Assembly: GCA_964016885.1 (NCBI GenBank) | Contig: OZ024754.1 | Location: 35,464,001 to 35,528,000 of the forward strand | From: Eledone cirrhosa | Lineage: Eukaryota | Reading direction: 5' to 3' | Length of the DNA: 64,000 nucleotides | Shown here: positions 4,398 through 60,040 of the stretch, piece by piece | Position numbering within the stretch: the stretch's first letter is position 1 | Layout: every line of letters starts with the position of its first letter | Notes under the pieces: generated by a model | What the model was told of the DNA's origin: nothing | Databases searched by the model: none | Seen by the model: the letters and a program-made list of their open reading frames with translations, nothing else | Translations under genes and position numbers: made by a program

Positions 4398-4590
4398 TAA
4401 AACGAAGGAGTTGTGGTAAGGAACCAGATGGACCATAATGCACCAGAGTACTCAATACTTAGGGTAGTAGAGTGGGTAATAGGAAAAAGTATGACCCAGG
4501 CGGCAGAGCTCAAGCCGTTTCGACGGCTATTTCTGGACAGAAATAGCCGTCGAAACGGCTTGAGCTCTGCCGTCGGGTTATACTTTTTCT
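4398..4590 (-). mobile_element. Fold-back hammerhead-derived mini-element, family A copy 1
   Basis: Near-perfect palindrome 4483-4589 containing GAAA-CGGC(TTGAGCTCT)GCCG-TC; (AT)n on both sides; homologous to 18218-18420 and 59843-60040. Confidence 0.8.
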
Positions 4591-5059
4591 TATATATATA
4601 TATACATATATATATATATATATATATATATATATATACACACATATACAAATATTTCACTTCTTTAAATACCTATAAGTTTTATCATGACGTGTGTTTA
4701 CATTCTTTGGCAGACTCGGTAGAACTGAGATAGGGTGTGCAAAGAAAGTAAATACTATTGTAAGGGTTTTCAGGGTTTAGGAAGAGTTGTGTCGCTAGAA
4801 TAACCTAAGGTTTTACCTGTAAAATAATAAATACAGTAGTTTCGATGGTATATTTGTGGGGTGATAGCTATGTATATAGTCCGTTAAATTTCCTATTGGA
4901 TAATTATTTACATAAACTTGTTAATTGCGAAAAAACTGAAACGTCAAATTTATGTCATTATATGGTTTTATGGCATATTTATTTATTTATTTAATAAATT
5001 CAAACGTCCGTGTAGAGCTGGTAAACCCTGGCGGTCTGGGAAAGGTATCTAATACCCTT

Positions 5060-5420
5060 TATATGTGTGTGTGTGTGAGAGAGAACGAGAAAGAGCGTGA
5101 GAGAGAACGAGAAAGAGCGTGAAAGAGAATGTGAGAAAGTGAGTGTGAGAGTGTGAGAAAGAGAGTGTGAGAGTGTGAGAAAGAGAGTGTGAGAGTAAGG
5201 GAGAGAGAGTGTGTGAATATGAGAGAGAGAGTGTAGGAGAGTGTAGGAGAGAGAGAATGAAGGAGAGAGAGAGTAAAAGAGAGTGAAAGAGAGTGAATGA
5301 AAAAGAGAGTATGAGAGAGAGGGAGATGAGAGAGAGAGAGGGAGGGAGATGAGAGAGAGAGAGGGAGATGAGAGAGAGAGAGAGAGAGGGAGATGAGAGA
5401 GAAAGAGAGAGAGAGAGAAA
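5060..5420. repeat. (GA)n/(GT)n low-complexity tract
   Basis: Directly visible. Confidence 0.9.
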
Positions 5421-5869
5421 TATAAGAAAACAAGTGAAAGTCCAGAGCTATAAAACAGTGAAATATTTCTGTTGTCGAATCCCTTTGTAACGTCCATATC
5501 TGGAAGATATGGTTTATGGTTGGCAGGTCCTTCACAATATATTACTCGTCTAGCCTTGATAGTTTATTTTAAGAACAATTATAAAATGTCATCTCTCTCT
5601 CTCACGTATTGGTACTATATACAGTTGGTATACGAACAAAGCGAATCTAGAAGCTTCTATTTCATGATAGGTTAAAATGACAGTAGTCACTACCTCAGCT
5701 TTATTTGCAGCAACTCATTGTATACACGGTGAAACAAATATATGCAAGTTATTTCTTGCCGTTTCAATTAATTAAAGACTAACAAGTTTTTAGTCTATTA
5801 TTATCATGTGTTTTTTTAAATTAAACAATACAATTATTCAATAAATAAATAAAAAATATGCATCATTGT

Positions 5870-6170
5870 CGTTAAAATGTGTAAAAAATGAGAGCTTAGA
5901 ATTAAGCCATAGCTCAAAATTTGACAATTGTCTTTAAAACGTGTAAAAAACGAGAGCTCAAAATTAAATCCTATAGTTCAGAATTAAATCATTGTCTTTA
6001 AAACGTATAAAAAAATAAGAGCTCAGAATTAAACCATTGTCTTTAAAACGTGTAAAAAATGAGAGCTCAGAATTAAACCATTGTCTTTAAAACGTGTAAA
6101 AAATGAGAGCTCAGAATTAAACCATTGTCTTTAAAACGTGTAAAAAATGAGAGCTCAGAATTAAACCATG
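5870..6170. repeat. 44-bp minisatellite, about 6 copies
   Basis: Unit GAGAGCTCAGAATTAAACCATTGTCTTTAAAACGTGTAAAAAAT, e.g. starting at 6061, 6105 and 6149. Confidence 0.9.
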
Positions 6171-6574
6171 AATGACCGTCATTTTAGAGAATTCATTATC
6201 AACTACTACAGTTTATGTTGACCCAATTACATTTTTCTTAATCCGTGTAATACATACTATACTATACAGACACATCTACATACATAATATATGTAGGCAT
6301 AGACACACACACACACGTATGCATATATATATACACACACACGTATATATACATATATACGTATACACACACACACACACGTATATATACATATATACGT
6401 ATACACACACACACACACGTATATATACATATATACGTATACACACACACACATATATATATACATATACACACACATATATATAAGTATACACGTATAT
6501 ACATATATACGTATACACACACACATATATATATATATATATATATATGTATGTGTGTGTGTGTGTGTGTGTGT

Positions 6575-6726
6575 GTAAAAGGTAAACAGAAATAACAACA
6601 CAATCGGAACAGTATATGGAAGGAATATATTAAGTTAATGCTTGAAATAGCAGGCAATGGGTCAAGACGTTTTGGACGCTAGTCCTTCATCAGAAGAAAG
6701 AATTGGAAATAATATAGATTGAGGGG
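6575..6726 (-). mobile_element. Hammerhead mini-element, family B copy 1 (core GAAA mutated to AAAA)
   Basis: Minus strand TCTT-CTGATGA-AGGAC(TAGC)GTCC-AAAA-CGTC; high identity to 55849-55999; abuts (GT)n. Confidence 0.75.
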
Positions 6727-56646: not shown

Positions 56647-56662
56647 TGTTATCATCATTATA

Positions 56663-56895
56663 CTTAGGAAGTGTCATGCTGCCAATAAAAACACACGCAC
56701 TGTTGGTTTTCACATAAATTTATCATAAAATTTCCCGTTGGTTGGTTCAATAACCGGTTGGCTGTTTATATATTGTCAAAGCCCTTTTGTCACACATTCT
56801 GTGACCTCCTCAGTGACTGAGTTTTTATTTTGTCTCTCCTTTGTTCTGTCGTACACCATTGGAGTGTTTTTATTAGCAGCATGTCCCTCCCAAAT
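56663..56895. mobile_element. MITE with ~35-bp imperfect TIRs and TA flanks
   Basis: AGGAAGTGTCATGCTGCCAATAAAAACAC ... GTGTTTTTATTAGCAGCATGTCCCTCCC. Confidence 0.7.
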
Positions 56896-57462
56896 TATAA
56901 CAATATCTGTTTCAACACACGTTTTCAGATAAGAAATCTTGCAAAACAAATACAAAAGTAAAGTGTGTGAGGTGTGGGTGTATATATATATATATATATA
57001 TATATATATATATATATATATATTATAAATAAACACAAATTCACGAATTCATAGATACGATAGTATTTTATTTCTCGCCATCGCCCTCCAATTTATGCTT
57101 GTAGAATTCGTCTGTCAACTGTAAAGTCGTGTGAGATAGATCTCATACCAGCATCTCCATATTTTTTTGTTAAGAGATACTACAACAAGATATGCTACAT
57201 TTATGGAATACGATTTGATATCCTCCACACTTTACGTTAATTATTTCTAAGCTCTGAACACAACTAATGATAAATGTTCACTTACAGCAGGGCTGCCCAA
57301 CCTTTTTTTGCATCATCACCCTCTTTCATGTGTAAATATTTTCCACAGCCTACTTTATAAATTCAAAAGCATAGCAAAAATGTTTGGTAATAGTTTGTTA
57401 CTGGTTTATTATTCCCAACTAGTCTCCTGTTTTGTTTATTTTTATAGGTTCTAGCATATTCC

Positions 57463-59218
57463 TTGTATCAATATAGCTACTGTATTACTGTCAGATTGTG
57501 TCGATATAGCTACTGTATTACTGTCACATTGTGTCAATATAGCTACTGTATTACTGTCACATTGTGTCAATATAGCTACTGTATTACTGTCACATTGTGT
57601 CAATATAGCTACTGTATTACTGTCACATTGTGTCAATATAGCTACTGTATTACTGTCATATTGTGTCAATATAGCTACTGTATTACTGTCATATTGTGTC
57701 AATATAGCTACTGTATTACTGTCACATTGTGTCAATATAGCTACTGTAATACTGTCACATTGTGTCAATATAGCTACTGTATTACTGTCACATTGTGTCA
57801 ATATAGCTACTGTATTACTGTCACATTGTGTCAATATAGCTACTGTATTACTGTCATATTGTGTCAATATAGCTACTGTATTACTGTCACATTGTGTCAA
57901 TATAGCTACTGTAATACTGTCACATTGTATCAATATAGCTACTGTATTACTGTCACATTGTGTCAATATAGCTACTGTATTACTGTCACATTGTGTCAAT
58001 ATAGCTACTGTATTACTGTCACATTGTGTCAATATAGCTACTGTATTACTGTCATATTGTGTCAATATAGCTACTGTATTACTGTCACATTGTGTCAATA
58101 TAGCTACTGTATTACCGTCACATTGTGTCAATATAGCTACTGTATTACCGTCACATTGTGTCAATATAGCTACTGTAATACTGTCACATTGTGTCAATAT
58201 AGCTACTGTAATACTGTCACATTGTATCAATATAGCTACTGTATTACTGTCACATTGTGTCAATATAGCTACTGTATTACTGTCACATTGTGTCAATATA
58301 GCTACTGTATTACTGTCACATTGTGTCAATATAGCTACTGTATTACTGTCACATTGTGTCAATATAGCTACTGTATTACTGTCATATTGTGTCAATATAG
58401 CTACTGTATTACTGTCATATTGTGTCAATATAGCTACTGTATTACTGTCATATTGTATCGATATAGCTACTGTATTACTGTCACATTGTGTCAATATAGC
58501 TACTGTATTACTGTCATATTGTGTCAATATAGCTACTGTATTACTGTCACATTGTGTCGATATAGCTACTGTATTACTGTCATATTGTGTCAATATAGCT
58601 ACTGTATTACTGTTACATTGTGTCAATATAGCTACTGTATTAGTCACATTGTGTCAATATAGCTACTGTATTACTGTCACATTGTGTCGATATAGCTACT
58701 GTATTACTGTCACATTATGTCAATATAGCTACTGTATTACTGTCACATTGTGTCAATATAGCTACTGTATTACTGTCACATTGTGTCAATATAGCTAATG
58801 TATTACTGTCACATTGTGTCAATATAGCTACTATATTACTGTCATATTGTGTCAATATAGCTACTATATTACTGTCACATTGTGTCAATATAGCTACTGT
58901 ATTACTGTCACATTGTGTCAATATAGCTACTATATTACTGTCATATTGTGTCAATATAGCTACTATATTACTGTCATATTGTGTCAATATAGCTACTATA
59001 TTACTGTCACATTGTGTCAATATAGCTACTGTATTACTGTCACATTGTGTCAATATAGCTACTATATTACTGTCATATTGTGTCAATATAGCTACTATAT
59101 TACTGTCACATTGTGTCAATATAGCTACTATATTACTGTCATATTGTGTCAATATAGCTACTATATTACTGTCATATTGTGTCAATATAGCTACTGTATT
59201 ACTGTCACATTGTGTCAA
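57463..59218. repeat. 33-bp tandem satellite, about 53 copies
   Basis: Unit TGTGTCAATATAGCTACTGTATTACTGTCACAT. Confidence 0.98.
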
Positions 59219-59842
59219 CTTGATATCACTGTCATATATTGTATAAGTATGTAATAACGGCGACACGTAAAATATTTGAAAATATGTTTGGTCAACAACA
59301 CATTGAGTTCAAACTGATTTCCTACTCCAGTAAAATATCATCGATATAACAATGTTTATCTGCTTATTTATTTTATCTATCTCGTTGTCAATGGCAATAT
59401 CGATTTTGTTACCCTTTGCACTACTGTATCATCTGCTATCATTGTCCCTAGGGACTCTTTACTGCTGACCTTTAAATTTTGCCTTCCAATTATCTATGCT
59501 CACTACCTATGTTGATAATGACCGCTATTATTATTAGTATTATTATTACTACTACTACTAGTGCATCCGTGTTGTCAATAATGACGGCAATAGTGATGAA
59601 CGTGTTTCATCGGAGGAGGTCAATGTCTAACTTAATAGCACACACACACACACACACACACACATATATATATTATATTCATTTATTAAGGCTAAATGCT
59701 GAGTCTTGTCCGTCTGTATGTCGCAGGTTTATTCACATACACATATATAACGGATCTAGCTGTCGGAACGGCCAGAACTCAGCCGTCGGGGTTCTCTCTT
59801 ACACTCTCGCATATATATATATATATATATATATATATATAT

Positions 59843-60040
59843 ATAGGAAAAAGTTTATCCCCGACGGCAGAGCTCAAGCCGTTTCGACGGCTATTTCTGG
59901 AGTTCAAAAATAGCCGCCGAAACGGCTTGAGCTCTGCCGTCGGGCTTAAACTTTTTCCTATTACCCACTCTACTACCCTAAGTACTGAGTACTCTGGTGC
60001 GTTATGGTCCATCTGGTTCCTCACCACACCTCCTTCGTTA
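59843..60040 (+). mobile_element. Fold-back hammerhead-derived mini-element, family A copy 3
   Basis: Palindrome about 59843-59961 plus the unique tail shared with copies 1 and 2; lies between (AT)n and (AC)n. Confidence 0.8.

What the first reader, a model, noticed from the sequence alone, without database searches (positions are those of the whole stretch)
4398..60040. Family A: three palindromic insertions folded back exactly at hammerhead stem II
Seen: copies at 4398, 18218 and 59843 each carry the 3' half of a hammerhead (GAAA-CGGC-loop-GCCG-TC, GUC triplet). Where CTGAnGA should be, there is the reverse complement of the downstream ~55-60 nt, centred on the stem II loop. Copy-specific bases are mirrored in both arms (GAACCAGTAAGACC/GGTCTTACTGGTTC only in copy 2), and each short arm ends at nearly the same point, joined to (AT)n. 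Inference: the cDNA 3' end snaps back on the stem II hairpin, self-primes second-strand synthesis, and then joins the target by TA microhomology. This would be a mechanistic footprint of how PLE inverted ends form.
Basis: partly seen in the sequence, partly recalled or inferred. Interest (0 to 1): 0.75.

Follow-up and report, generated by a model that had tools for sequence, protein, structure and literature searches.

The report
Penelope stubs ending at RNA cap
These three hairpin-shaped insertions are short stubs of a very abundant Penelope-like jumping gene; each likely arose when both ends of a DNA cut separately copied the element's RNA back to its likely start, which lies inside its ribozyme, and the two copies were joined head to head, which bears on the open question of how these elements make mirrored ends.

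Summary
The palindromes are real, but they are not folded on stem II. They are the shortest copies of a Penelope-like retroelement (PLE) with Hydra-clade motifs: 788-aa RT/GIY-YIG frame, complete U3-A8 hammerhead, at least 13,264 short-arm ends in this 3-Gb genome. Arms start at two fixed sites (+60, +139) and stop near one base (+1) in loop II, as do solo copies. An extra G, absent from parents, often precedes +1, on both arms in 312 loci; a TATA-like box lies at -30. A second family repeats this away from stem II. The short arm reaches further in 14 and the long arm in 18 of 56 copies, so snap-back fails for most. Best reading (0.7): two target-primed cDNAs run to the capped start and are joined. 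The layout and self-priming are in print; this scan already noted two-armed priming on other DNA (36 notes). I did not find the cap/TATA evidence in print or in the scan's notes. No RNA data were available.

The parts
4401..4479 (-). Copy 1 tail (element +61..+139); ends at outer site B next to (TA)n
4480..4538 (-). Copy 1 long arm (+2..+60): 3' half of the hammerhead; GUC mutated to GCC
4538..4592 (+). Copy 1 short inverted arm (+5..+60, site A), 1-nt overlap with the long arm
18219..18297 (-). Copy 2 tail to site B
18298..18357 (-). Copy 2 long arm (+1..+60); same subfamily as full-length element L136
18358..18359 (-). Copy 2 centre: extra G before +1 (18358, inferred cap copy) and one spacer base
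   Evidence: G is not parental:
18360..18418 (+). Copy 2 short inverted arm (+2..+60), identical to the long arm
59844..59901 (-). Copy 3 short inverted arm (+3..+60)
59901..59960 (+). Copy 3 long arm (+1..+60); the G at 59900 is shared with the short arm, so it is ambiguous as a cap copy; predicted cleavage site after 59941
59961..60039 (+). Copy 3 tail to site B, followed by (AC)n
41855..42085 (+). Second family, same anatomy (short arm, long arm plus ~71-nt tail, (TA)n on both sides); centre just upstream of a complete CTGATGA core; used as an independent test
   Evidence: coordinates counted from the printout

Best explanation
The three palindromes are the shortest insertions of a Penelope-like retroelement with Hydra-clade motifs, and each likely consists of two separately primed cDNAs, copied from the likely capped 5' end of the element's RNA and joined head to head. 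Steps: (1) Shown: parents have a complete type I hammerhead with a TATA-like box at -29 to -31 in the 5' strand of stem II and TYAGTC at +1 in loop II. Inferred: Pol II starts at +1, so the RNA's 5' end carries only the 3' half of the ribozyme. (2) Shown: outer ends sit at +60 and +139 and share TAT with the (TA)n target. Inferred, by analogy with the anole PLE in vitro: both target strands are cut and each 3' end primes reverse transcription at one of these two internal sites. (3) Shown: both arms, and solo copies, stop at -3..+7, often with a non-parental G before +1. Inferred: both cDNAs run off the capped end and copy the cap. (4) Shown: junctions have 0-6 nt overlaps, often at small inverted repeats, or short templated insertions. 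Inferred: the two cDNA 3' ends are trimmed and joined by microhomology. (5) Shown: both arms carry the same subfamily variant. Inferred: one RNA molecule or one source gene feeds both. The stubs lack -30 and the core, so they are predicted to be dead ends.
For: Coordinates: +1 = A of TYAGTC. Edge: the deeper inner end is at -3..+2 in 39 of 56 curated two-arm copies, +3..+6 in 8, +10 or more in 8, and beyond -3 in 1; 7 of 11 solo short copies end at -2..+3 (hand count). Extra G: in the first 100 of 9,563 hits, 0 of 33 parent-context rows have G at -1 against 18 of 67 junction rows (Fisher p=0.0005); G:A is 18:1, or 12:1 without 6 ambiguous rows (p=0.003). On short arms G:A is 16:2 in the first 100 of 13,264 hits (p=0.001). 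G at -1 in parent context: 12 hits genome-wide. G on both arms: 312 loci. All 15 of these that were read have one site-A and one site-B end and one subfamily in both arms; four young copies with identical arms (L151, L152, L154, L157) have four different centres. Symmetry 18 vs 14, p=0.6. Long copies: L140 arms reach -3179 (A) and -559 (B), L141 -3254 and -2110, L142 -2375 and -3048. TATA-like box at -29..-31 in 50 of 52 parent segments. Second family: TATAAATA at -30 of the same kind of edge, G before +1 in 10 of 55 junction rows (8 unambiguous; T 2, A 1, parental C 1), centre 6 nt upstream of the core. Subfamily concordance 37 of 38 (shuffled mean 10.5). Literature: the anole PLE cuts and extends both strands and starts at two sites that bound the tail (PMC11167929); an extra G marks the cap in full-length L1 insertions (PMC11702581).
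Against: No RNA evidence for the start site or the cap. An end-of-template untemplated C would look the same, and most arms reaching +1 carry the parental base (T 58, C 24 of 100). 18 of 56 copies are also compatible with snap-back. Arm concordance cannot separate one RNA, two RNAs of one gene and later gene conversion; private variants shared by both arms were few (3 against 26 one-arm differences). 3 of 90 loci have two site-B ends and 7 were set aside as deleted or complex. The anole study saw no strand difference in start site and reported no homology at the priming site. The TATA-like box of this family is non-canonical and doubles as a ribozyme strand, so its conservation has a second explanation. 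The curated counts are by hand, on one subfamily pattern and one chromosome.
Confidence: 0.7

Rival explanations
1. Snap-back (first reader; self-priming as in PMC3846280): one cDNA primed at the tail end folds back, copies itself to site A and joins the target.
For: 18 of 56 copies have the long arm at least 3 nt further; arms are concordant; templated insertions at centres; self-priming was proposed for PLE palindromes.
Against: 38 of 56 copies do not fit; the terminal G is on short arms (16 of 100) and on both arms (312 loci); both mirror forms of the same minimal junction occur in tail orientation; no natural stem II join among 20 hits; kilobase short-site arms carry sequence that the tail arm lacks.
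Confidence: 0.07
2. Two primed cDNAs as in the best reading, but the edge is a structural stop or a processed RNA end, and the G is an untemplated addition, not a cap at a transcription start.
For: The edge lies in loop II just past the 3' strand of stem II in the predicted fold; TTTAG/TCCAG also resembles a splice acceptor (from the sequence); no RNA data.
Against: The second family has the edge in stem I with a canonical TATA box at -30; the base upstream of the G varies, so there is no fixed upstream exon; the edge is 41 nt upstream of the predicted cleavage site, and only 1 of 11 solo copies ends near that site.
Confidence: 0.15
3. The stubs are remnants of long inverted insertions whose centres were later deleted, or copies of a master non-autonomous palindrome.
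For: Long inverted copies are common; internal microhomology deletions occur in several arms; one centre type (single-base spacer) is the most frequent.
Against: Deletion does not add a G or stop at one base in solo copies; identical young copies have different centres, the single-base spacer occurs in both orientations, and it occurs in three subfamilies.
Confidence: 0.05
4. A DNA MITE, or a fold-back assembly artefact.
For: Short, high-copy, palindromic, in TA repeats.
Against: The two termini differ; the stubs are continuous with an RT/GIY-YIG frame; short-read contigs of other runs show the same two ends running into (AT)n, and one holds a 60-nt palindrome of this family.
Confidence: 0.02

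Closest known systems
Insertion unit of endonuclease-bearing PLEs: inverted 5'-truncated copy plus one-sided tail (PMC3846280, passages; PMC8557442, passages and sections 11-12)
   Same: Head-to-head arms, tail on one end, partial tandems, (TA)n targets, hammerhead in the pseudo-LTR.
   Different: The tail is 78-79 nt rather than 30-40. Most copies stop at one base with an extra G. The published explanation is self-priming, possibly on an antisense template; here both arms end at a sense-strand start site.
Hydra clade of PLEs (PMC8557442, section 11)
   Same: C-terminal GIY-YIG, DKT, CxCX5C linker, CxxC and CxH, no CCHH, (TA)n insertion, hammerhead present.
   Different: RWR in place of RWK; 3.5-kb unit against 'generally <3 kb'; U3-A8 core; no tree was built.
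Anole Poseidon PLE in vitro (PMC11167929, parts 1-2 of 4 and passages)
   Same: Two internal start sites bounding the tail, both strands extended, ribozyme cleavage not required.
   Different: In the parts read, the two starts are not linked to the inverted arm, and run-off to a cap is not described.
L1 twin priming and cap-derived G (PMC11702581, passages)
   Same: Both ends of the cut are extended; microhomology at the inversion junction; extra G at the RNA 5' end.
   Different: L1's two cDNAs cover different RNA segments and the first starts in poly(A) (recalled); here both cover the same 60 nt and start at fixed internal sites.
D. virilis Penelope promoter (PMC2377424, passages; PMC4209133, passages)
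   Same: Pol II promoter in the pseudo-LTR; promoter regeneration depends on tandems.
   Different: There the start lies upstream of an intron that ends at helix I; here the inferred start lies inside loop II.

Membership tests
Hydra-clade PLE | Single ORF with RT and C-terminal GIY-YIG | tested here: met
   788-aa stop-free frame in L136 with QFDIES, YRDD and VIY..YIG. No Pfam or PDB hit, so the call rests on motifs.
Hydra-clade PLE | DKT in place of DKG; CxCX5C linker; CxxC and CxH; no CCHH | tested here: met
   DKT at 184, CNCPDRSIC at 639, CNLC at 737, CKH at 765; no CX2-5CxxC; one Cys in the GIY-YIG core.
Hydra-clade PLE | RWK motif | tested here: inconclusive
   RWR at 104.
Hydra-clade PLE | Insertion into (TA)n | tested here: met
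   73 of 90 tail ends are followed by (TA)3 within 3 nt.
Hydra-clade PLE | Placement in the clade on an RT tree | not tested
   No reference sequences were held; the Atlas look-up gave no result.
PLE insertion unit | Inverted 5'-truncated copy with the tail on one end | tested here: met
PLE insertion unit | Tail of 30-40 nt | tested here: not met
   78-79 nt; about 71 nt in the second family.
PLE insertion unit | Target-site duplication | tested here: inconclusive
   Both flanks are (TA)n in the 7 loci printed.
Type I hammerhead ribozyme (parent) | Core and three stems | tested here: met
   TTGAnAA with position 7 free (G15, A12, C8, T7 of 52 segments); three-way junction in the predicted fold; 95.8% of cells paired, with no covariation above shuffles at 89% identity.
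Type I hammerhead ribozyme (parent) | Self-cleavage | not testable with these tools
   U3-A8 is a described PLE variant.
Type I hammerhead ribozyme (the stubs) | Complete core | tested here: not met
   The 5' half is absent in all three copies.
MITE | Matching terminal inverted repeats; no RT parent | tested here: not met
   Termini are +60 and +139; RT parent present.
Non-LTR retrozyme | Tandem monomers each with a full hammerhead | tested here: not met
   Single stubs without a core; definition from bioRxiv 10.64898/2026.07.22.740005, part 1 of 5.
Pol II transcription start | Capped RNA 5' ends at +1 | not testable with these tools
   No RNA holder listed; only DNA proxies (extra G, TATA-like box, TYAGTC).

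The most novel reading that the evidence does not exclude
PLEs replicate through an LTR-like strong-stop step. Reverse transcription starts near the 5' end of the capped mRNA (+60 and +139), runs off the cap, and normally jumps to the second copy of +1..+139 at the RNA's 3' end, which rebuilds the pseudo-LTR and its promoter. The thousands of palindromic stubs are pairs of strong-stop cDNAs that failed to jump. The promoter is built into the hammerhead (TATA-like box in stem II, start in loop II), so the 5' end of the mRNA cannot cleave itself in cis. For: partial tandems pass +1 and stop at -95 to -1569. Against: long copies show no excess of G at -1 (12 G, 11 A; control position 11 G, 10 A).
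Probability: 0.25. Interest if true: 0.8.

Novelty: new member of a known kind. Interest (0 to 1): 0.55.

Why it matters
How PLEs form their tandem and inverted insertions is named as open in PMC8557442, and the printed explanation is self-priming. Thousands of stubs with a hard inner edge and an extra G on either or both arms argue that both arms are separate cDNAs of a sense, capped, uncleaved RNA. That ties the two start sites seen in vitro to the inverted arm. The same signal maps a PLE start site from DNA alone, and it gave a TATA box at -30 in a second family. It predicts exact products (60- and 139-nt cDNAs) that one in vitro reaction or one CAGE library can test.

Tried and rejected
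Repeat finder and Rfam on the whole window were swamped by microsatellites; no hammerhead among the 150 of 480 Rfam rows listed. A tail-only DNA search returned nothing, as common words are skipped. Pfam and PDB gave no hit for the PLE frames. The Atlas did not hold the protein. No RNA holder listed. The depth profile rises near +1 and falls after +139, but contig depth cannot rank parts, so it is not used. The first pattern for a natural stem II join missed one loop variant and was redone. The arm-end parser stopped at internal mutations and is discarded; over-extended some arms, so I curated by hand. Curation of the 90 loci: 56 two-arm short copies (57 loci, one duplicated), 12 long, 11 solo, 3 with two site-B ends, 7 set aside as deleted, complex or tiny. 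Loci L001-L030 were picked by likeness to copy 3 and were left out of the arm-end counts; they are among the loci scanned. Cap G carried into long copies: not found. Hammerhead covariation: not above shuffles. A spliced leader or upstream exon as the source of the G: rejected, as the preceding bases vary. One paper on telomeric PLEs was not held. No supplements were read; those of PMC8557442 and PMC11167929 may hold Hydra sequences and insertion-end alignments that bear on novelty.
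Full report
Observation. The three elements are present. Read on the ribozyme strand, each is: (TA)n, an inverted arm of 55-59 nt, a centre, the same segment forwards, a 78-79 nt tail, and a microsatellite. I number from +1, the A of TYAGTC in the parent. The short arm's outer end is +60 (site A), the tail end +139 (site B), and the predicted cleavage site follows +41. Copy 1 joins +5 to +2 with a 1-nt overlap. 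Copy 2 joins +2 to +1 with an extra G and one spacer base. Copy 3 joins +3 to +1. The window lies in a 3.0-Gb genome. Exact patterns gave 1,937, 9,563 and 13,264 hits, and the reversed controls none.

Parent. Non-inverted copies continue upstream into a complete type I hammerhead. In 52 distinct parent segments the core is mostly TTGAnAA with position 7 free; this U3-A8 variant is described in a Schistosoma PLE (PMC4209133, passages). The predicted fold is a three-way junction, but covariation is not above shuffles. Locus L136 holds a full element: inverted arm, pseudo-LTR, 788-aa frame, 3' UTR, hammerhead, tail and (AT)n, with a 3,546-nt unit. Its motifs match the Hydra clade as defined in PMC8557442 section 11, except RWR for RWK. 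Pfam and PDB gave no hit, and no tree was built. The bases called private to copy 2 are those of L136's subfamily.

Where the centres lie. The parent's stem II has its own 5' strand and a ~30-nt loop. A snap-back on that stem would keep the loop; none of 20 pattern hits does. I read 90 loci, the first 90 places on one chromosome that match a pattern at site A. By hand count, 56 are short two-arm copies, 12 are long, 11 are solo, 3 have two site-B ends, 7 were set aside and one is a duplicate. The deeper inner end lies at -3..+2 in 39 of 56, +3..+6 in 8, +10 or more in 8 and further upstream in 1. Seven of 11 solo copies stop at -2..+3, so the edge does not need an inversion. Several of the downstream centres sit on small built-in palindromes.

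Snap-back test. Self-priming needs the long arm to reach further than the short arm. It does so by 3 nt or more in 18 copies; the short arm does in 14, and 24 are within 2 nt (p=0.6 for symmetry; automatic count 18/13/20 of 51). Long copies keep the same two outer ends but have scattered centres and either arm longer, for example -3179 against -559 in L140. Arms are more alike within a copy (0.953) than between copies (0.881), and 37 of 38 typed copies have one subfamily in both arms. This shows a common source, not self-priming.

The extra G. Parents have T or C at -1. In the first 100 rows, G stands there in 0 of 33 parent-context rows and 18 of 67 junction rows; A stands there once (hand count; tests). 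Six of the 18 are ambiguous. Short arms show G 16, A 2, T 58 and C 24 in the first 100 rows; that pattern excludes one following base, so it is not a full count. In parent context G at -1 has only 12 hits genome-wide. 312 loci have the G on both arms. The 15 that were read all pair site A with site B, and four young copies with identical arms have four different centres. A primer cannot copy its own last base, so these are two cDNAs that each reached the RNA end. An extra G marks the cap in full-length L1 insertions (PMC11702581, passages).

Promoter. A TATA-like octamer starts at -29 to -31 in 50 of 52 parent segments, TATTTAAA in the young subfamily. TYAGTC resembles the Drosophila initiator, and -30 is the usual TATA position; both are recalled, as PMC10290830 (passages) gave only the TATAAA consensus and that the initiator spans +1. 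A second family in the window gives an independent test. Its centres lie 6 nt upstream of the core, not at stem II. Of 55 junction rows, 10 have G where the parent has C (8 unambiguous), and TATAAATA lies at -30. The centre therefore follows the promoter, not the hairpin.

Mechanism. Likely sequence: a capped RNA starts inside loop II; the protein cuts both strands of (TA)n; each end primes at one of two internal sites, both of which share TAT with the target; both cDNAs run to the cap; their ends are trimmed and joined. The anole PLE extends both strands from two start sites that bound the tail, needs ORF sequence beyond them, and does not need ribozyme cleavage (PMC11167929, parts 1-2 of 4). 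Not settled: one RNA or two, the order of the two primings, and whether the template is the mRNA 5' end or a read-through from a 3' pseudo-LTR. A bolder reading is a strong-stop jump that rebuilds the pseudo-LTR. Partial tandems do pass +1, but the one test I could run was negative: no excess of G at -1 in long copies.

What is known. The inverted copy, the one-sided tail and junction palindromes are described, with self-priming proposed (PMC3846280, passages). PMC8557442 lists their formation as open, and PMC2377424 finds no mechanism for pseudo-LTR regeneration beyond tandem formation (passages). Searches for Penelope with twin priming, second strand, strong-stop, head-to-head, transcription start and octopus (listings only, apart from the papers named) showed no paper with the cap-on-both-arms or start-inside-ribozyme result; the library lacks most subscription journals, and no supplements were read. 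This scan's notes already reach two-armed priming on other DNA, and one suggests that the stop may mark the RNA start; none was found for cap and TATA or for this sequence. My reading was noted before I saw them.

Verdict. A real feature and a new member of a known kind. Interest 0.55: the layout is known, but the terminal G on both arms and the -30 box in two families turn an open question into a sharp test. No RNA or biochemical evidence was available.

Noticed in passing
window 41855-42085: Second two-armed family (332 exact pattern hits) with a complete CTGATGA hammerhead in both arms, TATAAATA at -30 and an extra G at its edge; its tail shares an 11-nt motif with the tail of family A. No coding parent was identified.
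   Followed up: partly
window ~53745-54010: Head-to-head pair of CTGATGA hammerhead-like arms of ~120 nt around a ~55-nt spacer; a third family.
   Followed up: no
window ~6825-7055: Long inverted repeat (~100-nt arms) without an evident hammerhead core.
   Followed up: no
window 59750-59800: Degenerate 3' half of a related hammerhead directly beside copy 3, in the same (TA)n tract.
   Followed up: no
window 60050-60090; 40607; 41439(-); 42282; 56434(-): Further solo hammerhead-like motifs, one of the minimal type with a palindromic stem III.
   Followed up: no
L067, L070, L086: Three copies with two site-B ends; L086 has a stretch from just downstream of the tail inserted at its centre.
   Followed up: partly
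L065 and L066: The same insertion twice, 4.6 kb apart: a local duplication.
   Followed up: no
L132-L138: Several copies with 784-819-codon stop-free frames and 95-99% identity to L136: a recently active subfamily. The protein search met 52,693 candidate places.
   Followed up: partly
L213 3-830(+), L225 413-1315(+): GIY-YIG-like frames of other PLE clades near copies of the second family; any link is untested.
   Followed up: no
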